A DNA stretch of 64,000 nucleotides from an uncultured Gammaproteobacteria bacterium (GCA_964538435.1 CAZIDX010000001.1:393-64392); one strand, 5' to 3'. Positions 1 through 33,765 are shown, counted from the stretch's first letter. Notes: generated from the sequence alone by a model not told the origin. Numbers and translations: made by a program.

Positions 1-370
1 GCGCGAGCTCAAGAAGTACGTGGACGACAAGGGTATCGTCGTGGCTGACCTGATCAGCGCGCGCGAAGAGACCAAGATGAACGAGATGCTGGCCGGCCTC
101 TCCACCAACGAGGACCAGGTCGATCTCTCCGGGGTCTACGATGCTCGTGACCGGGCCCAGGCCCGCGCCGAGATCTCGAGCGCCATGGCTGGCACCGACA
201 CCGGTGCGATCGAGGACGAGCTGGACGCCGCTGCGGCCAGTGCCGGAGTCGCGGACAGTTTCTTCGCCGAACTCGACGCCGACGCCGCGGTCGAGGCCGG
301 GCCCACCAAGCCCGCGACCGACAAGGCCAAGGACTCCGGGTCCATCGACTTCGGTGCCCTGGACGACTAG
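1..370 (+). CDS. 5'-truncated CDS; acidic, Ala/Asp-rich C-terminal fragment of a hypothetical protein
   Basis: Reading frame is open from base 2 to the stop at 368-370 with no start in the window, so the gene begins upstream. GC-rich codon usage matches the downstream operon. Confidence 0.4.
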   Translation, partial: RELKKYVDDKGIVVADLISAREETKMNEMLAGLSTNEDQVDLSGVYDARDRAQARAEISSAMAGTDTGAIEDELDAAAASAGVADSFFAELDADAAVEAGPTKPATDKAKDSGSIDFGALDD

Positions 371-435
371 CGCGTCTGGAAACGTGATACGCGTGGAGTG
401 AGATTCAACCCTCACTCCACATTTCAACGCTCAGA

Positions 436-449
436 GTGGGGAAATCCAC
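436..449 (+). promoter_or_regulatory. Conserved leader hairpin, copy A (GTGG-GGAAAT-CCAC) upstream of the lipoprotein gene
   Basis: GGGGAAATCC core with complementary flanks; same motif at 3669-3684 and 5648-5663; followed by CGAGTGAAAC. Confidence 0.4.
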
Positions 450-552
450 AACGAGTGAAACCCAACCTGTCAATTCCAAGAAAAGGAAACTTGGGAAAGA
501 CTTCAAACCCTCGGTCGCGGGTAAGCGACTAACCCCGAGAAGGAGACACTCC

Positions 553-1731
553 ATGCGTCACTCCCTGATCACCCTGATGGCCTTCGGCCTGCTGATGTCC
601 GCGTGCAACGTCGAGGTCGAGAACCCGCCCGTCGCCAACGACTCCACGAACACCGCCGCGGCGCCCGCCGAGGTCCTGTTCACCCCGGTCAAGGCCGCCG
701 ACGGCACCCCGGACTTCAAGCTCGCCTGGAGCTTCTACACCTCCTGGTCCACCCTCGCCTCCGCCGACGCCTTCCACTACATCGACATCCGCGATGGCTG
801 GCAGGGCAAGTTCGAGGTCGAGCACGGCGTTGACGTGGTCCTGGAGCGCCTGGACTACGTGCCCAGCTTCGGTGTCTACGCCGCAGGCGCGGCCGACGCG
901 GTCACCATCACCAACACCGACGCCATGGCCGTGGCCTTCGAGCGCAAGAAGGGCGTGGGCGACGCCACCGTGGCCGTGTTCCCGACCTCGTGGTCCAACG
1001 GCGCGGACAAGATCCTGGTCGAGAAGGCCATCGGCAACTGGGCCGGCCTCGCCGGCGTGCCGGTCAAGGGCGCCGAGCTCTCCGTGACCCAGTACCTGTT
1101 CTGGCGCTGCAACGCCCTGAACGGCACCATGGACCAGTACGACAAGAGCTACGTGTTCGAGAACCTGGATCCCGTGACCGGCGCGCCCCTGTTCGCCGGC
1201 AAGCAGGATCCCAACCTGCAGGCCTTCGGTGGCTGGTCTCCCGAGACCTTCATCGTCCTGGACGGTCGCAACGGCGACGAGAACAGCGCCAACGACGTCA
1301 TCGACCTGTGCAACTCCGAGGCCCTGGACCGCTACGAGATCACCGACATGATGGTGGTCGGGCAGTCCGTGCTCGAGCGCCCGGGCGGCGTCGAGGGTGT
1401 CAAGGCCCTGGCCGCGGCCATGGATGCCATGGCCTCCCGCGTGGCCAGTCCCACCCAGCAGGGTGAGACCTACCGAGCCATCTCCGTCAACTTCAACGAC
1501 GTGGAGACCGGCTACATCCAGAAGGCCATGACCCTGAGCCCGCTGTCGGCCCCGTCCAAGGACCATGCGATCCTGGACTCGAACGAGATGCGTGCCAACA
1601 TGAAGTACGTGGTCGACTTCAGTCTCGAGCACGACCTGATCGGCGCGGCCAGCGACGTCCCGTACAGCTGGGGCACCAAGGCAGAGGCTCCGGACGCGGT
1701 CCTGCGCTTCGACACCTCGTTCGTCCACTAG
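553..1731 (+). CDS. Secreted lipoprotein of unknown function, possibly the substrate-binding component of the adjacent ABC transporter
   Basis: RBS GAAGGAGA before ATG at 553. N-terminus MRHSLITLMAFGLLMSAC has a signal peptide and a lipobox-like LMSAC. The ORF-track start at 436 would add a non-hydrophobic leader. Confidence 0.55.
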   Translation: MRHSLITLMAFGLLMSACNVEVENPPVANDSTNTAAAPAEVLFTPVKAADGTPDFKLAWSFYTSWSTLASADAFHYIDIRDGWQGKFEVEHGVDVVLERLDYVPSFGVYAAGAADAVTITNTDAMAVAFERKKGVGDATVAVFPTSWSNGADKILVEKAIGNWAGLAGVPVKGAELSVTQYLFWRCNALNGTMDQYDKSYVFENLDPVTGAPLFAGKQDPNLQAFGGWSPETFIVLDGRNGDENSANDVIDLCNSEALDRYEITDMMVVGQSVLERPGGVEGVKALAAAMDAMASRVASPTQQGETYRAISVNFNDVETGYIQKAMTLSPLSAPSKDHAILDSNEMRANMKYVVDFSLEHDLIGAASDVPYSWGTKAEAPDAVLRFDTSFVH

Positions 1732-1805
1732 GACGAGCTTCCTGATCGCACACGCGTGATCAACTCCTGCAGCTAGTTCGCTGGCTGCAGGCTTTCCACT
1801 GGAGG

Positions 1806-2684
1806 ATGAGACACTTCGTCTCGTCAACCAATGAGAAGAAAATGGAGGCTGAGATGCAGCGAGAAAACGGCTGGCGCAAAGCCTTGCGTCAGATGACTAC
1901 CATGCGGGAACCGCTTCCCAAGTGGCAGGAGCACATGTTCTTCGCGCTGGCGATCCTCACGATCCTCAGCGTGTACACCTACATCGCGTACTTCGGCGAC
2001 AACACCACCATCCCGACCTGGACCGAGCTCTTCAAGGGCTTTGGCAAGATGATCACGGACCCACGCAACGGGGAGCACATGATCTGGATGGACTCGATCG
2101 CCTCGTTCTCGCGACTGATCCCAGCTGTGGCAACCGCCTCGCTCATCGGGACCCTCATCGGTCTCTACACCGGTGTGTACGTTGCTGCGGACTCGTTCTT
2201 CAGCAAGATCCTGAGCTTCATGGGCAACATCGTCCCGAACGCTGCCATGGTGGTCTTCCTGACCCTGTTCGGATTTGCGTTCAAGATGTACAACGCCGCG
2301 ATCATCTTCGGTATCCTGCCCATCATCGCTACCCGGGTTCACCAGGCAGTCAGTGAGGTCCACAACGACCACATCTACAGCGCCAAGACCCTGGGAGCGT
2401 CGTCCAGCGAGATCATCTGGACCATTCTGCTTCGGCAGTGCATGCCTCAGATCATCGCTGCGGTTCGCGCATCGATCGGTCTGGCACTGATCCTGCTGGT
2501 CGCCACCGAGTGGGTGGCAGGCAGCTCCGGATTCGGGTACCGCTTCATGCGGCTCTACCGGTCCGCGCGCATGGATGTGATCTTCCCGTACCTGATGTAC
2601 CTCGGGTTCCTGGGAATCATCATCCAGCTCTTCTTCAACCAGATGCAGCGCCTGCTGTGTCCTTGGTACACCAAGGAGGACTAG
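1806..2684 (+). CDS. ABC transporter permease, NitT/TauT (SsuC/TauC-like) family
   Basis: Multi-TM protein with the binding-protein-dependent transport signature region (IIAAVRASIGLALILLVATEW...); start codon uncertain (1806, 1839 or later). Confidence 0.7.
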   Translation: MRHFVSSTNEKKMEAEMQRENGWRKALRQMTTMREPLPKWQEHMFFALAILTILSVYTYIAYFGDNTTIPTWTELFKGFGKMITDPRNGEHMIWMDSIASFSRLIPAVATASLIGTLIGLYTGVYVAADSFFSKILSFMGNIVPNAAMVVFLTLFGFAFKMYNAAIIFGILPIIATRVHQAVSEVHNDHIYSAKTLGASSSEIIWTILLRQCMPQIIAAVRASIGLALILLVATEWVAGSSGFGYRFMRLYRSARMDVIFPYLMYLGFLGIIIQLFFNQMQRLLCPWYTKED

Positions 2685-2686
2685 CC

Positions 2687-3601
2687 ATGACTACTCATGA
2701 GCAAGGCGCCTGCGTGGCACTCGAATGCCAGAACGTCAGCAAGTCCTTCGGAAGCACCCGAGTTCTGACCGACATCAACCTCGAGATCGGAACTGGGCAG
2801 ATTGTGGCCCTGGTCGGTGCGTCCGGCTGCGGCAAGTCCACGCTCCTCAACATGATCGTGGGCACACATCGGCCTTCCACGGGTCTGATCTACACGGTCC
2901 AGGACGGGTCCAAGACCCATGTGCAGACGCACGGTCCTGACCGCGGTATGGTCTACCAGAACTACAGCCTGTACCCGCACCTGACCGCGCTGAGGAACGT
3001 GACGCTCGGGCCCATGCTGCACGAGACGTCCATTCCTGGCCGCTGGCTGGGCTGGATCACGGGTTCGTGGCGCCAGCTGCGACGCGAGCATCAGGGCAAG
3101 GCCATGAAGCTCCTCACCGAGCTCGGTCTGGGTGAGCACGCTCACAAGTACCCGCACCAGCTCTCGGGTGGGAAGCGCCAGCGCGTGGCCATTGCCCGAT
3201 CCCTGATCATGGATCCCCAGATCCTGCTGCTCGACGAGCCCTTCGGAGCGCTCGACGAGGAAACGCGCAATGACGCGCGCCGCCTGTTGCTGGACCTCTA
3301 CGGCAAGGTGACCATCCTGATGGTGACCCACTCGCTCGAAGAGGCTGTGCACGTGGGTGACCGTGTGATCGCGCTTGGGAAGAACTGGAACGGCGGCGAG
3401 CGCGGTGCAACCGTGATCTACGACAAGCCGGCTCCGGTCTACATCTCCAGCGACCCGCTGCAGGACACCAAGATCATCGAGCAGGCCCAAGAGATCTTCC
3501 GGGCCATGTTCGAAAGCCCGAACCTCGACCCTACCGAGTACGTCACCTTCTGGGACGACGTCAAGGCCGGGCGGGTCGAAGGGGTCCTGGCATCGCGCTA
3601 G
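2687..3601 (+). CDS. ABC transporter ATP-binding protein (NitT/TauT family) with a C-terminal extension of about 50 aa
   Basis: RBS AAGGAGGA before ATG 2687; Walker A GASGCGKST, ABC signature LSGGKRQR, Walker B LLLDEPFGALD. The ORF-track start at 2438 overlaps the permease frame. Confidence 0.85.
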   Translation: MTTHEQGACVALECQNVSKSFGSTRVLTDINLEIGTGQIVALVGASGCGKSTLLNMIVGTHRPSTGLIYTVQDGSKTHVQTHGPDRGMVYQNYSLYPHLTALRNVTLGPMLHETSIPGRWLGWITGSWRQLRREHQGKAMKLLTELGLGEHAHKYPHQLSGGKRQRVAIARSLIMDPQILLLDEPFGALDEETRNDARRLLLDLYGKVTILMVTHSLEEAVHVGDRVIALGKNWNGGERGATVIYDKPAPVYISSDPLQDTKIIEQAQEIFRAMFESPNLDPTEYVTFWDDVKAGRVEGVLASR

Positions 3602-3668
3602 GACAAACAAAACGAGCTCAGCTCGAACGAGAGCGAGGCCCACAAAGCCTCGCTCTTTCTACATCAGA

Positions 3669-3684
3669 CTCGGGGAAATCCGAG
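3669..3684 (+). promoter_or_regulatory. Conserved leader hairpin, copy C (CTCGG-GGAAAT-CCGAG) about 35 nt upstream of the AAA+ gene start
   Basis: Same GGGGAAATCC core with covarying flanks; followed by CGATGACCAATCTACAA box shared with copy B. Confidence 0.45.
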
Positions 3685-3719
3685 AACGATGACCAATCTA
3701 CAAACGGAGGATAGACGCG

Positions 3720-5600
3720 ATGAAATTCCGTCATCTCGACTACGAGTTCCGACGTCAGACTGCCAGGATGTTCATGTCCGGGCAGTCGCAGAGCATCATT
3801 CTCCACGGCAACGTGGGGGACTACTTCTACCTGAAGCCCGAGCATTCAGGCAGGGATCCGAAGACCAACGAGATCCTGCACAAGGAAGGCAAGTACGTCA
3901 CCATGCTCGACTACTTGCGTCCGAGGTGGGGGAACGTGGCCAATACCATCCTGCTCGTCTACGAGCTGGGTGGCCCGATCCAGTTCATGTCCAAGGAAGA
4001 CCGCACGCTGTTGCGCGAAGCTTGGCTCAAGTTCCGGACAGAGGAGCTCTGGCAGGAGAACATGAAGGCCGACATCCTGGTCGATCCCAAGGAGGCCGAA
4101 GAACAGGTCGCGTCGCAGTTCAACGAGCTGCTCACTCGAGCCCACAAGGACCCGTCTCAGGCCCTGCGCATTCTGCGCAAGTTCTGCCAGATCTCCCGCT
4201 GGGAACACAAGGACAACCCGATCCGTAATCATCGGATCGTGATCCTGCTCGAGGATGCGGACCTGATCATTCCCGAAGGGGAGATCACGCGCATGAGCGA
4301 CAAGGATCGTCGGCGCATGGTGATCTGTCGGGAGTGGTTCACGGACCCTGGGTTCATGAACGGCGAAGACGCAGTGGTCATGATCGCTGAGTCTGCCAGC
4401 CAGATCAACGGTCGTGTCAGCAAGCTCCCGCAGGTTCTTCGTGTGGCTGTGAACGCTCCTCTGGAGCACGAGCGTGCACACTACATCCGATGGTTCAACG
4501 CCATGCAACCCAAGGATCGCAAGATCAAGCTCTGGGGCACACAGGAAGTACTGGCTGCCTACTCAGCAGGCCTGAACTTGCACGCCCTGCGCCAGATGCT
4601 CGTGGGTGCCACCTACGAGGATCGCAAGCTCGAGAAGAGCGACGTCACTGACCATGTCGAGGCGTACATCATCGCGCAGCTGGGTGAGGGTACGGTCGAG
4701 TTCCATCGGCCACACCACCACCTCAAGGATCTGGTCGGAAACGCAGACGTGATCCGCTTCCTGCGCGAGACCGTGATCCCGCGCATGCTCTCAACCGGCA
4801 AGAGCGCTCTCAGCGGCATTGCTGTCTCAGGCCCTATCGGTGCAGGCAAGACCTTCATCTTCGAGGCTGTGGCTGCCGAACTGGGTATGCCGGTCCTGAT
4901 CCTCAAGAACCTCCGCAGCAAGTGGTTCGGAGGTACGGATGTGATCATGGAGCGGCTCGAGCGCGTGCTCTACAGTCTGTCCAAGGTCGCGATCTTCGTG
5001 GACGAAGCCGACACCGTGTTCGGCGGAGTCGGACAGGACGTACACGCCACCGAGCGCAGGCTCACCGGCAAGATCCAGTCCTGGATGTCAGACCCGCGCC
5101 TCAAGGGCAAGGTGATCTGGATCCTGATGACGGCCCGCGTGCAGAACCTATCCGCAGACATCCGTCGCCCCGGGCGCGTTGGCAACCTGATCATCCCGAT
5201 CCTGGACCCGACCGGCGACGATCGCATTGCGTTCATCAACTGGGCGCTCAAGGGCTACTGCAAGCTTCCTAAGCAGGGGAGCGCAGAATGGATCCGAATC
5301 GAAGAAGCAACCAAGGGTTTCTCGGCCGCGCAGTTCGCTGCACTTCGAGAAGAGCTGGATGCTCAGGTCGAGCTCACAGGCAATGATCTCACCTTCAAGG
5401 ACGCTCTCGAGATCCTAGAAGAACAGCTCTCAGCTGACATCCAGACCGAGCGCCGAGTCCAGGAGCTCTACGCTCTGGTCAACTGCACACGCAAAAGCCT
5501 GCTGCCCGGCGGCAAGGACCTGTCGCGTGCGGATGTCGAGGAGCTGAAGAAGGGGTGGATGAAGGAGATCCACATGCACAAGCGCGCACTCGCCGCTTGA
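3720..5600 (+). CDS. Classic-clade AAA+ ATPase with a degenerate N-terminal AAA-like domain (two-domain architecture)
   Basis: RBS GGAGGA; C-terminal domain has Walker A GPIGAGKT, Walker B IFVDEAD, and an SRH-like RPGRVGN motif. N-terminal half has pseudo Walker A GQSQSIILHGNVGD and Walker B-like VILLEDAD. Confidence 0.75.
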   Translation: MKFRHLDYEFRRQTARMFMSGQSQSIILHGNVGDYFYLKPEHSGRDPKTNEILHKEGKYVTMLDYLRPRWGNVANTILLVYELGGPIQFMSKEDRTLLREAWLKFRTEELWQENMKADILVDPKEAEEQVASQFNELLTRAHKDPSQALRILRKFCQISRWEHKDNPIRNHRIVILLEDADLIIPEGEITRMSDKDRRRMVICREWFTDPGFMNGEDAVVMIAESASQINGRVSKLPQVLRVAVNAPLEHERAHYIRWFNAMQPKDRKIKLWGTQEVLAAYSAGLNLHALRQMLVGATYEDRKLEKSDVTDHVEAYIIAQLGEGTVEFHRPHHHLKDLVGNADVIRFLRETVIPRMLSTGKSALSGIAVSGPIGAGKTFIFEAVAAELGMPVLILKNLRSKWFGGTDVIMERLERVLYSLSKVAIFVDEADTVFGGVGQDVHATERRLTGKIQSWMSDPRLKGKVIWILMTARVQNLSADIRRPGRVGNLIIPILDPTGDDRIAFINWALKGYCKLPKQGSAEWIRIEEATKGFSAAQFAALREELDAQVELTGNDLTFKDALEILEEQLSADIQTERRVQELYALVNCTRKSLLPGGKDLSRADVEELKKGWMKEIHMHKRALAA

Positions 5601-5647
5601 ACACCAGGGTTCGTCAACGACTGACGGACCCATTTCAACACGCAGCG

Positions 5648-5663
5648 CAGGGGAAATCCTGCA
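5648..5663 (+). promoter_or_regulatory. Conserved leader hairpin, copy B (GCAGG-GGAAAT-CCTGC) about 35 nt upstream of the next gene
   Basis: Third copy of the GGGGAAATCC core with compensatory flank changes; followed by GTGTGACCAACTACCA box. Confidence 0.45.
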
Positions 5664-5696
5664 CGTGTGACCAACTACCAGGACCGGAGTGAAACA

Positions 5697-6809
5697 ATGC
5701 CCACCATGCACGCCCGCCTGTGCCGCACGATTCTTCGAAACGCCAGGAAGGCGGGGAAGTTCTACGAGTACGACGATGAGAGCTCGCTCGACGAGCCCAT
5801 CATGTTCTTCTTCCAAGAGTCCGTGGAAGGTCTGGTGCTCTTCATTGTGTACCGCACACTTCCATGCGTCTTCAACGGATGCACCTTCTGCCGTCTGCCT
5901 GGTACATCCACGCTGCGCGAGGTGAACTTCCGTCACGTAATGAATCAGACCAGGTACGTGATGACCCACCCGGACGTGGTGCCGCGCCTGGACGAGATCC
6001 AGAAGCTGATCATCTCCAACCAAGGCTCCATCCTGGACCAACGCACGTTCGACCAGCTCGCGCTCATGGACCTGATCGCTCAGGGTGAGTACAACTTCCC
6101 GAACATGGCTAGCATGTGCCTGGAGACCCGCATCTGCTACGTCGAGGATGAAGAGATTGTGCTACTCGGCCATGCCATGGCTGGCGGTGACACCGTGACT
6201 GTGCTCGAGTTCGGGATCGGGGTCGAGGCCTACAACGACTCAATCCGCAACTCCAGGCTCGGCAAGGGGATGCATCTGCGCGAGAAGCCCAACAGCCTCG
6301 AGCGACTGGCCGAACGGCTCTCGCTCTTGTGTGAGGACATGCTACGCTTCCGCATCAAGTGCTACTTCCTGCAGAAGCCCCACGAGAGCATGACCGACGA
6401 AGAGGCGGTCCAGGACGTCAAGGACATGATCGACTTCATGTCTGGTCTGGTCGCCAAGCATGCGATCCGGATGAACCTCCATCTCAACCCCACCTTCGCG
6501 GCCAAGGAAACCAAGCTCGAGACCGAATTCAAGGCCGGCAGGTTCACACCGCCACGCCTGAGTGATGTCGCGCGCGCGGTTCTCTACGCCGAGGACAAGG
6601 GGGTGAGTGTGTTTGTCGGGCTCGACGACGAGGGGCTTGCCTGCGAAGGAGGTTCCTTCCTGCAGCCTGGCAACGAGCGCATGGTTGCGGCCCTGGATCA
6701 GTTCAACCGTACGCAAGACTTCGATGAGCTGCGCGCAAGGCTGGATGCCTACCTTGGCGATCCGCACTACAATCACGAGACCGACCTGATCGAGGTTCCA
6801 ACGGCCTGA
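5697..6809 (+). CDS. Hypothetical 370-aa protein with a CX4CX2C cysteine cluster (CVFNGCTFC)
   Basis: RBS GGAG before ATG 5697 (ORF track starts at GTG 5667). GC-rich codon usage; sits immediately downstream of the AAA+ gene and shares its leader motif. No family recognised. Confidence 0.55.
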   Translation: MPTMHARLCRTILRNARKAGKFYEYDDESSLDEPIMFFFQESVEGLVLFIVYRTLPCVFNGCTFCRLPGTSTLREVNFRHVMNQTRYVMTHPDVVPRLDEIQKLIISNQGSILDQRTFDQLALMDLIAQGEYNFPNMASMCLETRICYVEDEEIVLLGHAMAGGDTVTVLEFGIGVEAYNDSIRNSRLGKGMHLREKPNSLERLAERLSLLCEDMLRFRIKCYFLQKPHESMTDEEAVQDVKDMIDFMSGLVAKHAIRMNLHLNPTFAAKETKLETEFKAGRFTPPRLSDVARAVLYAEDKGVSVFVGLDDEGLACEGGSFLQPGNERMVAALDQFNRTQDFDELRARLDAYLGDPHYNHETDLIEVPTA

Positions 6810-6837
6810 TCAGCACGTCTCAACGCGCAAACGCAAA

Positions 6838-6868
6838 CGCAGAGCTCGCCTGAGCCCTGCGTTTTCTA
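6838..6868 (+). terminator. Rho-independent terminator of the GC-rich operon
   Basis: CGCAGAG...CCCTGCG stem followed by TTTTCT, then the conserved TTTTCTAATTG linker. Confidence 0.6.
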
Positions 6869-6876
6869 ATTGAACA

Positions 6877-6922
6877 GGTGGATACCATTTAAGTGCCGAT
6901 CGGACCTTATATGGTATCCACC
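6877..6922. repeat. REP-like palindromic repeat, copy 1 (GGTGGATACCATTTAAG-TGCCGATCGGAC-CTTATATGGTATCCACC)
   Basis: 46-bp inverted repeat with a CCGATCGG core; near-identical copies at 31145-31188 and 33693-33735, with outer arms covarying (GGTGG/CCACC vs GGGG/CCCC). Confidence 0.65.
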
Positions 6923-6928
6923 GAGAAT

Positions 6929-7441
6929 CTATTTAATTGTATACAAATAGAGATCAAGTTGCCCCGCGGCTTTGCTTATCTCTTCAGCCTCCCATTCAGG
7001 GATCGGCCAGACATAGCTGATAACCCTAGTTCCAGGTTTGAGCTCTGAGCGAAGCTTTGACTCAATCTTTTCATATGTCTCAGGCATCAGAAACATGTAC
7101 ACCGCATCATATTCATTCAAGTTCTTACCAAACACATTCCCAAATCGATATCGAGCTCGAGAACGCGTTGCTGATGCTTGCAGGGCTGCAACAAGATATT
7201 GCAGTAGAGAAAGCTCAACGCCATGCACTGCGACTCCGGGATTCTTCTGAGCCAAATGTCGACATACACGCCCATTCCCACACCCAAGCTCAACGAACTT
7301 CTCACCATCCTTAAGCTTGAGTAATTTATGTATCCGATCAAGATCTTGCTTCCTGGTAGGCACCCAAGGCGCCCCAGAAGCCGCTGCATACGCAAGCGAG
7401 GCCAGGAGAACCAAGCCAATCCCAGCAAAAACATATAACAT
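6929..7441 (-). CDS. Class I SAM-dependent methyltransferase, small, with an N-terminal TM segment
   Basis: Motif I VELGCGNGRV; about 170 aa. Confidence 0.65.
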   Translation of the reverse strand: MLYVFAGIGLVLLASLAYAAASGAPWVPTRKQDLDRIHKLLKLKDGEKFVELGCGNGRVCRHLAQKNPGVAVHGVELSLLQYLVAALQASATRSRARYRFGNVFGKNLNEYDAVYMFLMPETYEKIESKLRSELKPGTRVISYVWPIPEWEAEEISKAAGQLDLYLYTIK

Positions 7442-7703
7442 ATGGATTGATTATAGCACTGAAACGAATCATCGCCACCTTACTCGACACAAACGTGAGG
7501 ATTTGGAAACGCTATCAAGGCCGCAGGGGACAATTTTTGTGAGAATCCCGCTTGCGGGATCGAACAAAGAATTCGTCCCTGAGGCTACTCTGACAAAACC
7601 CCCACCCGCAGCCAAAAAGAAGACACCCTCCGTTCCAGTCCCCAAGCAAGGGAAAGGGAAGGAGGGTGCTTCGTCGCGACGTTTCGTGCGTCGCGTCAGG
7701 GAG

Positions 7704-8480
7704 CTAGGCCTGTGCCGGCTCCTGGTTGTTCACCACGAGCTGCAGGCCGCTGCCGCGCAGCAGATCACTCATGCTGGCGCTGCCGCCGCTGTCCTGGTGA
7801 ACGACATCCTCACCATCGGCCAGGTCGGCATTGGTCAGGATCTCGCGCACGCGCATGTCGAGGTTGATGCCCTTGCCGCTGACCGGGTTCCAGTCCAGGC
7901 TGCGGGTCGCGAAGGTGCGGGACTCGCCGCCGAACATGAGCGGAGCCGGCCGCGAGTACATCATGCCAGCGGGATCCTTGAGCACGATGCGCTGCTTGGG
8001 CTTGGGATCACCTTCCTCGAGCGGGAAGACATCCAGGAAGAACATGTAGTTCTTCCAGACCTTGAAGTGGGGATCCTGGCGCGTGTCCGCGTCCTTGATG
8101 TGCACGGTGCGCACACCGACCTTGACCCGGCCAGCGACGATCAGGGCGTCATCGCCCTTGGGGCCGCGCAGGTGCACGCTGATGCCGCTGCAGCGGTCGC
8201 CCAGGCGCACGTGATGGTACTCGCCGATGGGGGAGTCGGTCACGGGCGTGTGCTCCGCACCCTTGGGGATCTCGATGATGCAGGGGCCCAGGTCCTCGGC
8301 GTAGAACAGTTCCTGGATCGTGGGGTCGTTGCCCTTGTGTCGGGGCGGCTTCTCGATGGTGGCGATGTGACCCACGCCGTCGGTCTCGACGTTCATCGCT
8401 CGCAGCTCGGCGAGGAAGTCCTCCCAGTGCGCAAGAACGTTCAGTCCTCCGATCGTTCGGACGGTCATGTCGGACATCAT
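7704..8480 (-). CDS. Hypothetical protein, GC-rich gene
   Basis: 258-aa ORF with ordinary amino-acid composition; the overlapping + ORF 7317-8726 looks like an antisense shadow. A TTGACA-N17-TATTTT promoter lies on the minus strand near 8560-8600. Confidence 0.55.
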   Translation of the reverse strand: MMSDMTVRTIGGLNVLAHWEDFLAELRAMNVETDGVGHIATIEKPPRHKGNDPTIQELFYAEDLGPCIIEIPKGAEHTPVTDSPIGEYHHVRLGDRCSGISVHLRGPKGDDALIVAGRVKVGVRTVHIKDADTRQDPHFKVWKNYMFFLDVFPLEEGDPKPKQRIVLKDPAGMMYSRPAPLMFGGESRTFATRSLDWNPVSGKGINLDMRVREILTNADLADGEDVVHQDSGGSASMSDLLRGSGLQLVVNNQEPAQA

Positions 8481-8664
8481 TCACTCCATTGGTTGACGCG
8501 GCCAAGTCGTGGCGGCGTACAGGATTTCCGCTTTAAAAACGGTTCTGACGCAGCGGTCAGACGACGAAAAATACCACAAAATGGTACTTTTGTCAACCTC
8601 TGGAGCCAAAAAACACACAAAAATGGATGCTTTTTATGGATTCGACCCTGGGGAAATCTCTTTG

Positions 8665-8692
8665 TTTACAAAAAAAATACCTTGTGTATAAT
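8665..8692 (+). promoter_or_regulatory. Sigma70-type promoter (TTTACA-N16-TGTGTATAAT, extended -10) for the 8734 gene
   Basis: Read directly from the sequence; a GGGGAAATC motif sits just upstream at 8650-8658. Confidence 0.55.
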
Positions 8693-8733
8693 CCGTTTCG
8701 AAGCATTCATTTCTATTAATCCTTAGGAGGAGT

Positions 8734-9177
8734 ATGGATATCCAAACACTTTTTAAACTCGAGATCGGTGAAACCGTTCGAGTCTCCAACGAGCCACTCA
8801 CGCTCATTGGACGATCTACAATCACATTTGATGGCGGTGACGAGCTTGTCTGGCTCTTTGATGAAGACGAGCGCATTCTCTCAGTCGCACCAGAGGAAGA
8901 AGAGCTTTTCTTGTTTGAAAAACTTGATGAAGAAATCGAGCCAGACGAAGAGGGGATTCTTTACCAAGGAAAAGAGTACGAATTCCACTACAAAGACACA
9001 GGTGTGGTGACAGAGGTAGAGGGCGACGTCATAACCGAGCCAGACGACACCTACTTGTACATGGACTACGAAGCAAAGGATGGGGGTGTGCTGCGCATTG
9101 TCAGCAACGAGAATACAGGTGAAGCAGGTGCCTATGTTGGCCGCACGGTTTCAGAAGATGATCTAAACGAGCTGTAG
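8734..9177 (+). CDS. Small acidic cytoplasmic protein, possibly DUF4178-like
   Basis: RBS AGGAGGAG; 147 aa; family assignment is from memory only. Confidence 0.45.
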   Translation: MDIQTLFKLEIGETVRVSNEPLTLIGRSTITFDGGDELVWLFDEDERILSVAPEEEELFLFEKLDEEIEPDEEGILYQGKEYEFHYKDTGVVTEVEGDVITEPDDTYLYMDYEAKDGGVLRIVSNENTGEAGAYVGRTVSEDDLNEL

Positions 9178-14684: not shown

Positions 14685-14750
14685 CCAACGTCTGACTTCC
14701 AACGTCTGACTTCCAAAGTCTGACTTCCAACGTCTGACTTCCAACGTCAG
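14685..14750. repeat. Tandem repeat, 14-bp unit CCAACGTCTGACTT x about 4.7, immediately after a stop codon
   Basis: Units at 14685, 14699, 14713 (one variant base) and 14727, with a partial fifth. Nested GC-rich hairpins and a T-run follow to about 14815. Confidence 0.8.
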
Positions 14751-18440: not shown

Positions 18441-18515
18441 GGCCCCATCGTCTAACGGTCAGGACGCCAGGTTCTCATCCTGGAAATCGGGGTTCGATTC
18501 CCCGTGGGGTCACCA
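18441..18515 (+). tRNA. tRNA-Glu (anticodon CUC), CCA encoded
   Basis: Cloverleaf can be drawn by hand: acceptor GGCCCCA/TGGGGTC, D-stem GTCT/GGAC, anticodon stem CCAGG/CCTGG with loop TTCTCAT, T-arm CGGGG-TTCGATT-CCCCG. Confidence 0.85.
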
Positions 18516-18517
18516 AT

Positions 18518-18550
18518 AAAAACGCTCACCTGAAAGGTGGGCGTTTTTAT
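18518..18550 (+). terminator. Rho-independent terminator after the tRNA (ACGCTCACC/GGTGGGCGT + T5)
   Basis: Hairpin plus TTTTTATT directly after the CCA end. Confidence 0.7.
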
Positions 18551-18708
18551 TGGTACCCGATCGGAGGATGAGAACCTCGCGGGTTCGATGCGTGAGAGAG
18601 CGAGAGTGATAAATGATAGTCGGTATCGGTTCTAAGACTTTCATTTATCACCGAGCGAACAAACGCAATATTGTGTTGGCATCCAACACAATATTCCCCG
18701 TGGGGTCC

Positions 18709-23344: not shown

Positions 23345-23373
23345 TTGACAAAATGGCGAAAATCGAGTATTCT
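23345..23373 (+). promoter_or_regulatory. Sigma70-type promoter TTGACA-N17-TATTCT preceding a leader of about 235 nt
   Basis: Read directly from the sequence; a terminator hairpin for the upstream gene lies at about 23297-23323. Confidence 0.5.
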
Positions 23374-23607
23374 CCAATCTTCTTTACCCAATACCAAGGC
23401 AACTATCGCAGCCAAAAATTGCATAGAAACACTCCATGTTCCCTCATGAACAACAACAGCTCAGAGGTTTTTGCAGGGAGTTTTTGTTTTGTGGTCGCTC
23501 GTGCTCAATGGAGGCTTTGCACGGGTTGTCACCGAACAGGTATTACGCCTGAAACGAACAACCTCCCATGCGCTTTTTGCGCTTCCTGTTCATCACAAGG
23601 AGACTTC

Positions 23608-26430
<2,823 letters not shown>

Positions 26431-31141: not shown

Positions 31142-31218
31142 CCAGGGGATACCATATAAGTGCCGATCGGACCTTATATGGTATCCCCAAAGAGTATTCA
31201 GCCCAATTAGAAAACCCG
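31116..31218. repeat. 103-bp direct repeat, copy 1 (promoter + 44-bp palindrome + CAATTAGAAAACCC)
   Basis: Near-identical to 33663-33765; contains the palindrome 31145-31188 (GGGGATACCATATAAG-TGCCGATCGGAC-CTTATATGGTATCCCC). Confidence 0.8.
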
Positions 31219-33662: not shown

Positions 33663-33765
33663 ATAGTCAAAAAACCATCATTTGTCAACCAAGGGATACC
33701 ATATAAGGGCCGATCGGACCTTATATGGTATCCCCAAAGAGTATTCAGCCCAATTAGAAAACCCG
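33663..33765. repeat. 103-bp direct repeat, copy 2 (promoter-like TTGACA + palindrome 33693-33735 + CAATTAGAAAACCC)
   Basis: Same orientation as copy 1; the two copies bracket the SPFH module and the HTH pseudogene. Confidence 0.8.

What the first reader, a model, noticed from the sequence alone, without database searches (positions are those of the whole stretch)
436..5700. Covarying GGGGAAATCC leader hairpin shared by three genes of the GC-rich operon
The 5' leaders of the lipoprotein gene, the AAA+ gene and the CX4CX2C gene each contain GGGGAAATCC flanked by 2-3 bp that differ between copies yet remain complementary. The copies are GTGG..CCAC at 436-449, CTCGG..CCGAG at 3669-3684 and GCAGG..CCTGC at 5648-5663. 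Compensatory changes around a conserved loop are the signature of a selected stem-loop in RNA, or of a structured DNA site. Copies B and C also share a downstream box, CG(A/T)-TGACCAAYCTACMA, and both lie about 35 nt before a start codon. Copy A is followed by CGAGTGAAAC, and GAGTGAAAC recurs at 5688. Together this suggests a small regulon with a common, possibly novel, cis-regulatory RNA or operator.
Basis: seen in the sequence. Interest (0 to 1): 0.8.

Follow-up and report, generated by a model that had tools for sequence, protein, structure and literature searches.

The report
Terminator-plus-hairpin punctuation of a Uhrbacteria operon
The three GGGGAAATCC hairpins are real, evolutionarily maintained RNA stem-loops. 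Each sits directly behind a weak terminator hairpin in the gaps between genes of one operon in a Candidatus Uhrbacteria genome, so they look like an undescribed but not revolutionary way of setting how much of each gene's message survives.

Summary
GGGGAAATCC occurs exactly three times (0.11 expected), each time capping a hairpin whose flanks differ but stay complementary.

The element is larger than reported:
- a GC-rich terminator-like hairpin (P0) with a short U tract (YUUUCNA);
- 7-9 nt later, a two-helix hairpin (P1, purine-rich internal loop, P2, mostly a GAAA loop; 13-14 stacked layers);
- then a C/A-rich, G-poor tail that usually starts (G)ACCAA.

A fourth gap, before the permease gene, carries the same layout with a different hairpin.

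Fifteen copies from eight Uhrbacteria loci give the same structure de novo: 94% of cells paired versus 28-40% in slid controls, and 5 of 9 pairs show compensatory changes. Frequent G-U pairs point to sense-strand RNA, not a DNA operator.

The same operon (PspA-like, ABC importer, AAA+, radical-SAM-like) occurs in many phyla, but there its gene gaps are near zero. Only Uhrbacteria have 100-180 nt gaps with these modules. Rfam has no match.

The hairpin is anchored to the terminator, not to the ribosome-binding site. My best reading (about 0.45) is an intercistronic attenuation, processing and stability module. Rivals are a protein-bound operator, a tRNA-like minihelix for RNase P, a nut-like antitermination site and a sigma-B-like promoter.

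I rate it a new variant of a known kind.

The parts
393..420 (+). P0-A: terminator-like hairpin after the PspA-like gene (stop at 368-370). Sequence GTGGAGTGAG-ATTCAACC-CTCACTCCAC, followed by the tail ATTTCAA (421-427).
   Evidence: The whole module folds with z = -4.7, and 0 of 200 shuffles fold as well.
428..457 (+). Class I hairpin, copy A. P1 is CGCUC/GAGUG, the internal loop is AGA/AAC, P2 is GUGGG/UCCAC and the loop is GAAA. The tail AAACCCAACC covers 458-467.
   Evidence: (26 bits, not a seed of the model).
553..1731 (+). Substrate-binding lipoprotein of the ABC importer (NMT1/urea-SBP-like).
   Evidence: (TIGR03427, E = 1e-27).
1766..1791 (+). P0-D: terminator-like hairpin after the SBP gene. 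Sequence CCTGCAGC-TAGTTCGCTG-GCTGCAGG, followed by the tail CTTTCCAC (1792-1799).
1800..1830 (+). Class II hairpin, copy D. UGG/CCA flanks a continuous 8-bp helix GAUGAGAC/GUCUCGUC with loop ACUUC. The U tract can also pair with the downstream GAAG. The likely permease start is the ATG at 1854, after the Shine-Dalgarno sequence GGAGG.
   Evidence: z = -5.9. Orthologues with compensatory changes are in L001 and L003 and in L087, L088 and L089.
1854..3601 (+). ABC permease (1854-2684) and ABC ATPase (2687-3601). The gap between them is 2 nt and holds no module.
3631..3655 (+). P0-B: terminator-like hairpin after the ATPase gene. Sequence GAGCGAGGC-CCACAAA-GCCTCGCTC, followed by the tail TTTCTA (3656-3661).
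   Evidence: z = -6.2.
3662..3691 (+). Class I hairpin, copy B. P1 is CAUC/GAUG, the internal loop is AGA/AAC, P2 is CUCGGG/UCCGAG and the loop is GAAA. The tail ACCAAUCUAC covers 3692-3701. The AAA+ start codon is the ATG at 3720.
3720..5600 (+). AAA+ ATPase (Vps4/CdvC/FtsH-type AAA domain), 626 aa.
5607..5631 (+). P0-C: terminator-like hairpin after the AAA+ gene. Sequence GGGTTCGTC-AACGACT-GACGGACCC, followed by the tail ATTTCAA (5632-5638).
   Evidence: z = -5.8.
5639..5669 (+). Class I hairpin, copy C. P1 is CACGC/GUGUG, the internal loop is AGC/AC, P2 is GCAGGG/UCCUGC and the loop is GAAA. The tail ACCAACUACC covers 5670-5679. The start codon of the next gene is the ATG at 5697.
5697..6809 (+). 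RaSEA-like radical-SAM-type protein with a CX4CX2C motif, 370 aa.
   Evidence: TIGR01210, E = 2.4e-18, below the curated cutoff.
6835..6875 (+). End-of-operon terminator. A hairpin (CGCAGAGCTCGCCTGAGCCCTGCG) is followed by TTTTCTAATTG. It has a longer U tract and no second hairpin of class I or II.

Best explanation
Proposed function. Each gap between genes of this operon carries a two-part RNA punctuation module that acts on the polycistronic transcript.

Part 1 is P0, a GC-rich hairpin with only 3-4 U. It works as a leaky internal intrinsic terminator and as a barrier to 3' exonucleases for the upstream gene's message.

It forms 7-9 nt further on in read-through transcripts. I propose that:
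- the short U-rich linker between the two hairpins is where RNA ends are made, either by termination or by endonuclease cleavage guided by the downstream helix;
- the second hairpin then sits at or near the 5' end of the downstream message and protects it;
- the C/A-rich unstructured tail leads to a strong Shine-Dalgarno sequence.

The net effect would be a stepwise, tunable ratio: PspA-like > SBP > permease/ATPase > AAA+ > radical-SAM protein.

Shown: the anatomy, the conservation, the covariation, the fixed position relative to the terminator and the lineage restriction.

Inferred: termination, cleavage and stabilisation. No transcript data were available.
For: 1. All four window modules fold as two adjacent hairpins, with z = -4.7 to -6.2 and 0 of 200 shuffles folding as well.
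2. Pairing is maintained by compensatory change. In 15 copies, 94.1% of cells are paired against 28-40% in slid controls, and 23 cells have changes on both sides against 6.9 in shuffles (0 of 500 reach the observed value). P2 pair 19-32 occurs as AU 6, CG 5, UA 3 and UG 1.
3. G-U pairs make up 15 of the 127 paired cells, which fits sense-strand RNA.
4. P0 resembles this genome's ordinary terminators, which end in TTTT(C/G)A, but has fewer U. Internal terminators with low-U tracts after SBP genes set ABC importer stoichiometry in Clostridia (PMC9045158).
5. The spacing from P0 to the second hairpin is fixed at 7-9 nt. The spacing from that hairpin to the start codon is not fixed.
6. In Staphylococcus aureus an internal terminator is followed by an RNase Y cut, which is directed by a double-stranded element 6 nt downstream (PMC5449607). 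Intergenic stem-loops set operon stoichiometry in selective RNA processing and stabilisation (PMC4423207).
7. Class I and class II hairpins occupy the same ATPase-to-AAA+ junction in different Uhrbacteria, so the role seems structural and interchangeable.
8. In other phyla the same operon has junctions of about -10 to +30 nt and no module.
Against: - There are no transcript ends, no RNA-seq and no nuclease data for this organism.
- A pure stabiliser model does not explain three features of class I copies: the apex GGGRA is invariant in all 15 while the lower stem covaries, the total helix length stays at 13-14 layers, and (G)ACCAA is kept in B and C copies.
- I did not check which ribonucleases (RNase Y, J, E, III) Uhrbacteria encode.
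- P0 has a short U tract and may terminate poorly or not at all.
Confidence: 0.45

Rival explanations
1. The class I hairpin is the binding site of a specific trans-acting factor, either a protein possibly encoded in the cluster or a small RNA. The factor would co-regulate translation or stability of the SBP, AAA+ and radical-SAM cistrons.
For: - The apex G-G-G-R-A and the top two or three G-C/G-U pairs are invariant in 15 of 15 copies, while the lower stem covaries.
- Total helix length is constant at 13-14 layers.
- The same hairpin type is used at three junctions in the window lineage.
- The copy at the PspA-like to SBP junction is kept in every Uhrbacteria locus examined that contains this junction.
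Against: - The distance to the Shine-Dalgarno sequence and start codon varies widely, so direct occlusion of the ribosome-binding site is unlikely.
- Loops vary: GAAA, GAGUA, AGACC, AAAUA, AACU and an 8-nt loop.
- Sister genomes use an unrelated class II hairpin at the AAA+ junction.
- No RNA-binding domain was found in cluster proteins.
Confidence: 0.2
2. The class I hairpin plus its ACCA tail is a tRNA-like minihelix. RNase P would cut at its 5' base and the tRNA 3'-end machinery would cut or trim after CCA. The message would be punctuated in the way tRNAs punctuate mitochondrial transcripts.
For: - P1 is followed directly by A-CCA-A in most B and C copies: all four B copies and W_C read GACCAA, L001_C reads GACCAT, and L002_C reads GACCAA.
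- The only tRNA genes seen in this lineage encode CCA in the same context: tRNA-Glu ...GGGGTC-ACCA-AT and L004 tRNA-Arg ...ATC-ACCA-G.
- The helix has 13-14 layers, close to the 12-bp acceptor/T-stem stack.
- RNase E cuts 1-3 nt after encoded CCA in E. coli tRNA precursors (PMC2190699 abstract).
Against: - Copies at the PspA-like to SBP junction have variable tails (ACCA, AUCA, ACUA, AAACCAA, AAACCCAA).
- L003_C has AUCCA.
- There is no T-loop, and ARAGORN and the Rfam tRNA model see nothing here.
- The first pair is C-G rather than G-C.
- In class II copies the CCA is base-paired.
Confidence: 0.1
3. The module is a nut-like or put-like processive antitermination site. A boxA-like U-rich element plus a boxB-like GNRA hairpin would reload a termination-resistant RNA polymerase, so that it reads through the next internal terminator.
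For: - Window copy B reads CGCUCUUUCUACAUCAGA-CUCGGGGAAAUCCGAG. Lambda nutR reads CGCUCUUACACAUUCCA-AGCCCUGAAAAAGGGC, and rrn boxA reads UGCUCUUUA (PMC2724277).
- Loops are GAAA in 10 of 15 copies, and GAGUA in L001 fits a GNR(N)A fold.
- The operon has a terminator-like hairpin at every junction.
Against: - The CGCUC part is the base-paired 3' strand of P0. It differs completely in copies A, C and D.
- Only the U run is common to all copies.
- Other copies have non-GNRA loops.
- Class II hairpins do not resemble boxB.
- No N-like protein was identified.
Confidence: 0.07
4. The conserved letters are a promoter for a sigma-B/F-type alternative sigma factor (TTT, then 13-15 nt, then GGGAR), so each gene has its own start just after the hairpin. 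GACCAA would then be the transcription start region.
For: - All 15 class I copies have a T run 13-15 nt before GGGA(A/G). From memory, this is close to GTTTAA-N12-14-GGGWAW.
- No sigma-70-like promoter is found in these gaps.
Against: - A promoter does not explain complementarity between its spacer and the region after the -10 element, nor the compensatory changes and G-U pairs.
- Class II junctions lack GGGAR.
- The T run is already explained as the terminator tail.
- A canonical TTTACA-16-TATAAT promoter and a conserved extended -10-like TGTTATACT sequence that I read as a promoter suggest the lineage uses ordinary promoters.
Confidence: 0.05
5. The modules are copies of a small repeated extragenic element (REP/MITE-like) that spread within the operon and are neutral or selfish.
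For: - B and C copies share an identical P2 (GCAGGGGAAAUCCUGC in W_C, L001_C, L002_B and L003_B), which suggests duplication or gene conversion between junctions.
- The genome does hold another palindromic repeat family.
Against: - There are no copies outside this operon in the other 57 kb of the window, in the flanks of eight related loci, or in 1.1 Mb of distant loci.
- Copies are kept at orthologous positions across genomes whose AAA+ proteins are only 50-70% identical, with compensatory substitutions.
Confidence: 0.05

Closest known systems
Internal (attenuating) intrinsic terminators in ABC importer operons, and selective RNA processing and stabilisation (SRPS) stem-loops (Clostridia; PMC9045158, PMC4423207)
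   Same: - GC-rich stem-loops lie in gaps inside an operon, including directly after the SBP gene.
- Their U content is lower than in the genome's canonical terminators.
- The expected result is graded levels of the cistrons.
   Different: - Here every internal terminator is followed at a fixed 7-9 nt by a second, separately conserved and covarying hairpin and a C/A-rich tail.
- The lineage is Patescibacteria.
- No expression data exist.
RNase Y cleavage guided by a downstream double-stranded element in the S. aureus saePQRS operon (PMC5449607)
   Same: An internal terminator after the first gene is followed by an intergenic site, with a helix a few nucleotides downstream that determines where RNA ends are made. 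The downstream product is stabilised.
   Different: - The sae element is described as a 24-bp duplex. The hairpin here has 9-11 pairs plus an internal loop (13-14 layers).
- Neither RNase Y nor cleavage is shown here.
tRNA-like minihelix substrates of RNase P, and the tRNA punctuation model
   Same: A helix of about acceptor-plus-T-stem length is followed by N-CCA in most B and C copies. It lies between coding regions of a polycistronic RNA.
   Different: - There is no T-loop and no cloverleaf.
- The CCA is not universal.
- tRNA and Rfam models do not detect it.
Lambda nut site (boxA, spacer, boxB) and rrn antitermination signals (PMC2724277)
   Same: A U-rich element is followed about 10 nt later by a short hairpin with a GNRA-type loop. 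Copy B resembles nutR letter for letter over CGCUCUU.
   Different: - The boxA-like letters are base-paired in P0 and are not conserved among copies.
- Many loops are not GNRA.
- The module follows a terminator rather than a promoter.
Repetitive extragenic palindromes (REP/BIME, Correia-type elements)
   Same: Structured palindromic units lie in intergenic regions of operons and can stabilise upstream mRNA.
   Different: REP families are dispersed genome-wide and conserved in sequence. These copies are confined to one operon and conserved in structure with covariation.

Membership tests
Any Rfam 15 family | Match to a curated covariance model | tested here: not met
   Bases 1-9000 were scanned at E <= 10. 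The only hits were chance-level rimP (24.6 bits against a gathering score of 47) and sucA-II (16.8 against 70). The whole window at gathering threshold gave only one tRNA.
Intrinsic terminator (P0 part) | GC-rich stem-loop just downstream of a stop codon | tested here: met
   Stems are 8-11 bp and lie 7-30 nt after the stop codons at 370, 1731, 3601 and 5600.
Intrinsic terminator (P0 part) | Run of U directly after the stem | tested here: inconclusive
   There are only 3-4 T (ATTTCAA, CTTTCCA, CTTTCTA), against 4-6 T in other terminators of the window. The generic scan, which requires 5 T in 8 bases, did not call them.
Intrinsic terminator (P0 part) | Release of transcripts at the U tract | not testable with these tools
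   No transcriptome or in vitro transcription data.
Internal attenuating terminator / SRPS stem-loop | Located inside an operon between co-directional genes, with lower U content than canonical terminators | tested here: met
   Four junctions of one co-directional cluster. U content is compared. The criterion is taken from PMC9045158.
Internal attenuating terminator / SRPS stem-loop | Step in transcript abundance, or processed ends, at the stem-loop | not testable with these tools
   No RNA data.
RNase Y guide element (sae type) | Double-stranded element about 6 nt downstream of the cut site; 24 bp in sae | tested here: inconclusive
   A helix starts 7-9 nt after P0 but has only 9-11 pairs. 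The cut site is unknown, and I did not check whether the genome encodes RNase Y.
tRNA-like minihelix / RNase P substrate | Single-stranded N-CCA directly after the helix | tested here: inconclusive
   Met in 7 of 8 B and C copies. Only 2 of 7 copies at the PspA-like to SBP junction have ACCA; the others have AUCA, ACUA, AAACCAA or AAACCCAA.
tRNA-like minihelix / RNase P substrate | T-loop or recognisable tRNA-like fold | tested here: not met
   Loops are 4-8 nt and mostly GAAA. ARAGORN and Rfam tRNA/tmRNA models find nothing at these sites.
Lambda nut / rrn antitermination site | Single-stranded boxA consensus (CGCUCUUA / UGCUCUUUA) | tested here: not met
   It is present only in the B copies of the window and L001, and there it forms the 3' strand of P0. 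Copies A, C and D differ.
Lambda nut / rrn antitermination site | boxB hairpin with a GNRA-like loop | tested here: inconclusive
   GAAA in 10 of 15 copies and GAGUA in 1. The other four loops are AGACC, AAAUA, AACU and GGAACGCU.
Sigma-B/F-type promoter | GTTTAA-like and GGGWAW-like elements 12-14 nt apart (consensus quoted from memory) | tested here: inconclusive
   TTT-N13-15-GGGAR is present in 15 of 15 class I copies but absent from class II junctions. It does not account for the covariation. I did not search for the sigma factor.
Dispersed repeat (REP/MITE) | Many copies in unrelated intergenic regions | tested here: not met
   Models R1 and R2 find copies only at junctions of this operon, across 1.29 Mb searched.

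The most novel reading that the evidence does not exclude
The class I hairpin with its ACCA tail is a tRNA-like minihelix. It recruits RNase P and the tRNA 3'-end machinery to cut a bacterial polycistronic mRNA into separate, differently stable messages. This would be a bacterial counterpart of mitochondrial tRNA punctuation, evolved in a reduced-genome Patescibacteria lineage. A related reading that is also not excluded: the invariant GGGRA apex is the target of a dedicated, still unknown RNA-binding regulator of this widely conserved PspA-like/ABC/AAA+ operon.
Probability: 0.1. Interest if true: 0.75.

Novelty: new variant of a known kind. Interest (0 to 1): 0.45.

Why it matters
Almost nothing is known about RNA-level gene control in Candidate Phyla Radiation (Patescibacteria) bacteria, which cannot be grown alone.

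Here a lineage has taken an operon that is tightly packed in many other phyla and opened every junction to insert a terminator-plus-hairpin unit kept by compensatory evolution. If the unit sets message ratios, it is a compact, portable part for tuning operon stoichiometry.

It also marks a conserved operon of unknown function as needing graded expression. That operon encodes a PspA-like protein, an ABC importer, a Vps4-like AAA+ ATPase and a RaSEA-like radical-SAM protein.

The hairpin is a candidate new RNA family for Rfam.

Tried and rejected
- **Rfam** at permissive thresholds returned nothing relevant.
- **The generic promoter and terminator scan** found no sigma-70 promoter in the gaps and did not call P0, because its U tracts are short.
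- **The metagenome scan** with the AAA+ protein returned only the FLOH01 contig I already held.
- **The genome scan** returned 80 distant loci (at most 51% identity), only two of which (L004, L005) carry a module. The window's own species is not among the GTDB representatives.
- **Exact-protein look-ups** of the window's SBP and ATPase found nothing. Look-ups of the methyltransferase and the PBP gave only short Logan contigs. I therefore could not read upstream of the window start.
- **A literature search** for the accession numbers found nothing.
- **Known self-cleaving ribozymes** have no Rfam hits and no hammerhead core.
- **CsrA sites**: GGA is present in most copies, but it is not in a loop in class II and is absent from the L001 OmpA-leader hairpin.
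- **Small riboswitches** (preQ1-I, guanidine-II): there is no matching loop or tail pairing.
- **A GNRA tetraloop-receptor contact with P0**: P0 sequences are unrelated between copies.
- **The GAGTGAAAC recurrence**: it is not conserved in the orthologue.

Full report
**1. Checking the observation**

GGGGAAATCC occurs exactly three times in the window, at 438, 3672 and 5650, all on the + strand. Shuffles give 0.11 expected, and none of 100 reaches three.

Outside the inner helix there is a second helix that also differs between copies yet stays paired:
- copy A: CGCUC/GAGUG;
- copy B: CAUC/GAUG;
- copy C: CACGC/GUGUG.

The full hairpin is therefore P1 (4-6 bp), a purine-rich internal loop, P2 (5-6 bp, 8 bp in L001_C) and a loop that is usually GAAA closed by G-U.

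**2. The element is bigger than the hairpin**

Directly upstream of each copy lies an unrelated GC-rich hairpin, P0, of 8-11 bp. It is followed by (A/C)TTTC(A/T)A, and the covarying hairpin starts 7-9 nt after P0.

After the hairpin comes a C/A-rich, G-poor tract that starts (G)ACCAA in copies B and C. A strong Shine-Dalgarno sequence and the start codon follow.

A fourth gap, between the SBP and permease genes, has the same layout:
- P0 at 1766-1791;
- tail CTTTCCAC;
- hairpin at 1800-1830, then CCAAUG.

Its second hairpin is of a different type, a continuous GAUGAGAC/GUCUCGUC helix that I call class II.

All four modules fold as two adjacent hairpins, with z-scores from -4.7 to -6.2. There is no module between the permease and ATPase genes, which are 2 nt apart.

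**3. Organism and gene context**

The window is chromosomal. It encodes DnaK, DnaB, RecQ, ClpB, MurF and a PBP. Its DnaK is 80-85% identical to proteins named Candidatus Uhrbacteria, in the Patescibacteria.

The first 6.8 kb are 60-64% G+C, against about 50% for the rest. They encode:
- the end of a PspA/IM30-like protein;
- an NMT1/urea-type SBP lipoprotein;
- an ABC permease and an ABC ATPase;
- a 626-aa AAA+ ATPase;
- a RaSEA-like radical-SAM-type protein.

**4. Related loci**

The AAA+ protein has four relatives at 53-69% identity and thousands at about 50%.

I obtained the following syntenic Uhrbacteria loci: L001, L002 and L003; L004 and L005; and L087, L088 and L089.

Covariance model R1, built from six copies, recovered unseeded copies at the same junctions:
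- L001 AAA+ leader: 47 bits;
- L003 post-AAA+ gap: 31 bits;
- window copy A: 26 bits;
- L003 and L001 SBP leaders: about 20 bits each;
- L088, L087, L004 and L005 SBP leaders: 29, 26, 15 and 14 bits.

Model R2, built from all 15 copies, finds those 15 and nothing else below E = 8 in 1.29 Mb. An independent architecture scan (hairpin, TTTCNA, hairpin, CCA) found 0 hits in 1.1 Mb of the 80 distant loci.

**5. Covariation**

RNAalifold on a plain MAFFT alignment of the 15 copies predicts P1 and P2 de novo. Five of nine pairs show changes on both sides.

With that structure, 94.1% of cells pair, against 28-40% when partners are slid by 1-3 columns. Twenty-three cells have double changes, against 6.9 in shuffles (0 of 500 reach the observed value).

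Examples:
- the window and L001 have CUCGGG/(U/C)CCGAG at the AAA+ leader, where L002 and L003 have GCAGGG/UCCUGC;
- the window has GUGGG/UCCAC at the SBP leader, where L001 has GUAGG/UCUAC.

The sequences are related as orthologues and paralogues, so the shuffle counts overstate independence. The slid controls and the de novo prediction do not depend on that.

Fifteen of the 127 paired cells are G-U. These would be A-C mismatches on the opposite strand, which fits a sense-strand RNA. It argues against an antisense RNA, a cruciform or a dimer-bound DNA palindrome.

P0 also shows compensatory change between orthologues, for example GAGCGAGGC/GCCUCGCUC, GGGCGGGGC/GCCUCGCCC and GGGCGAGGU/ACCUCGCCC.

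**6. What is constrained and what is not**

- Lower P2 and P1 covary freely.
- The apex G-G-G-R-A is invariant in 15 of 15 copies.
- The first P1 pair is C-G in 14 of 15 copies.
- By my count from the sequences, total length (P1, plus the longer side of the internal loop, plus P2) is 13-14 layers in all copies, even though the partition varies.
- Loops are GAAA in 10 copies, and GAGUA, AGACC, AAAUA, AACU and GGAACGCU in one each.
- The tail is ACCA-A/U in most B and C copies but varies at the SBP junction (ACCA, AUCA, ACUA, AAACCAA, AAACCCAA).
- The distance to the start codon varies widely, while the distance to P0 is fixed.

The hairpin is therefore tied to the terminator-like element, not to the ribosome-binding site.

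**7. P0 looks like this genome's terminators, but weaker**

An unbiased list of strong hairpins shows that terminators elsewhere in the window end in 4-6 T followed by (C/G)A, for example TTTTTCAAT, TTTTTGATAT and TTTTTCGATTT. The operon's internal ones have three T. The operon's last hairpin, at 6835-6864, has TTTTCTAATTG and no second hairpin of class I or II.

**8. The lineage pattern**

The whole cluster is syntenic in Planctomycetota, Verrucomicrobiota, Hydrogenedentota, Nitrospirota, Poribacteria, Desulfobacterales and others. In most of those loci the junctions are about -10 to +30 nt.

Only the Uhrbacteria loci have junctions of 100-180 nt filled with terminator-plus-hairpin modules.

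- Class I is at the PspA-like to SBP junction in all seven Uhrbacteria loci whose sequence includes that junction.
- In the window lineage (window, L001, L002, L003), class I is also at the ATPase to AAA+ junction and at the gap after AAA+.
- L005, L087, L088 and L089 have a class II hairpin at the ATPase to AAA+ junction.
- In class II modules the U tract can pair with a downstream GAAGAG tract.

**9. Mechanism**

The best-supported reading is an intercistronic attenuation, processing and stability module. P0 would be a leaky terminator and a block to 3' exonucleases. The U-rich linker would be where RNA ends arise. The second hairpin would guide or limit cleavage and cap the 5' side of the downstream message.

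Three published systems support this by analogy:
- low-U internal terminators after SBP genes in Clostridia (PMC9045158);
- selective RNA processing and stabilisation (PMC4423207);
- the S. aureus sae operon, where an internal terminator is followed by an RNase Y cut guided by a duplex 6 nt downstream (PMC5449607).

The interchangeability of class I and class II hairpins at one junction supports a structural role. Termination, cleavage and stabilisation are all inferred; none is shown.

**10. Rivals**

- **A specific binder** would explain the invariant apex and the constant length. It fits poorly with the variable loops and the variable distance to the start codon.
- **A tRNA-like minihelix for RNase P** is suggested by helix-ACCA in B and C copies and by CCA-encoding tRNA genes with the same 3' context. 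The CCA is not universal, and there is no T-loop.
- **A nut-like site**: window copy B resembles lambda nutR strikingly, but the boxA-like letters are the paired 3' strand of P0 and are not shared by other copies.
- **A sigma-B-like promoter** (TTT-N13-15-GGGAR) fits the conserved letters but cannot explain the covariation.
- **A dispersed repeat** is excluded by the searches.

**11. Verdict**

The 'leader regulon' framing should be replaced by 'operon punctuation module'.

The terminator part is of a known kind. The fixed, covarying second hairpin is undescribed: it is not in Rfam and is specific to Uhrbacteria. I rate it a new variant of a known kind, of moderate interest.

Noticed in passing
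window 1-6810; loci L004-L083: The cluster (PspA/IM30-like, NMT1-type SBP, permease, ATPase, 600-aa Vps4/CdvC-like AAA+, often a RaSEA-like radical-SAM protein) is syntenic across many phyla, and a Bathyarchaeia MAG also carries it. The AAA+ protein is about 45-50% identical across them. Its function appears to be unknown. In L003, L087 and L088 further upstream genes (a longer NMT1-type protein, a VWA protein, an OmpA-like protein) belong to the same cluster. In Uhrbacteria the cluster is 10-14 points richer in G+C than the surrounding genome.
   Followed up: partly
window 6877-6922, 31145-31188, 33692-33735: A palindromic repeat of about 44 nt (GGGGATACCATATAAGKNCCGATCGGNCCTTATATGGTATCCCC) occurs at three intergenic sites, with 6 half-site matches against 0 expected. 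One copy sits right at the 3' boundary of the GC-rich operon. It may be a REP/MITE-like element or a bidirectional terminator family.
   Followed up: partly
window 18441-18554: The tRNA-Glu(CUC) gene encodes its CCA. The ACCA is also the first four bases of a 20-bp hairpin (ACCAATAAAAACGC...GCGTTTTTATTGGT), so the tRNA 3' end would be base-paired in the primary transcript.
   Followed up: no
L087 10822-10850, L088 9872-9925, L089 4728-4787: After the AAA+ or 2OG-oxygenase gene these sister loci have a canonical terminator. It runs straight into a conserved TTTTTTGTTATACT, which reads as an extended -10 promoter (TGnTATACT) fused to the U tract.
   Followed up: no
L001 5400-9300 (FLOH01000142) and window 1-6800: Public gene calls in the GC-rich operon are on the wrong strand or fused. 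L001 has a run of minus-strand calls over the SBP, permease and ATPase genes. The window's SBP, ATPase and AAA+ proteins are absent from the protein collection. The operon is therefore effectively unannotated in these records.
   Followed up: partly
L003 12035-13057, L087 9872-10822: The gene after the AAA+ gene varies between Uhrbacteria. It is a RaSEA-like radical-SAM protein in the window, L001 and L002; a 2OG-Fe(II) oxygenase (PF10014) in L003 and L087; and a methyltransferase in L088. In L003 the class I hairpin precedes the oxygenase gene.
   Followed up: no
window 14685-14748 and 25099-25466: There is a 14-nt tandem repeat (CCAACGTCTGACTT, 4.6 copies) in an apparent intergenic region. 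There is also a 198-nt in-frame tandem repeat inside the 1025-aa ORF at 23353-26430, a stretch that is 62% G+C.
   Followed up: no
L090 6079-7963: In this more distant locus, genes for a nucleotidyltransferase (PF01909), a DUF4258 protein and an MqsA-like antitoxin-type protein sit between the ABC genes and the AAA+ gene. In other phyla that position is a tight junction.
   Followed up: no
L003 3195-3270, L001 2777-2850, L087 1353-1469, L088 1328-1440: The leader of the OmpA-like gene further upstream in the cluster also has a terminator-like hairpin, then CTTTCCA or TTTTCTC, then a second hairpin. The tail is AGAAAG-type rather than ACCAA. The two-hairpin layout may therefore extend over the whole cluster of about 12 kb.
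   Followed up: partly
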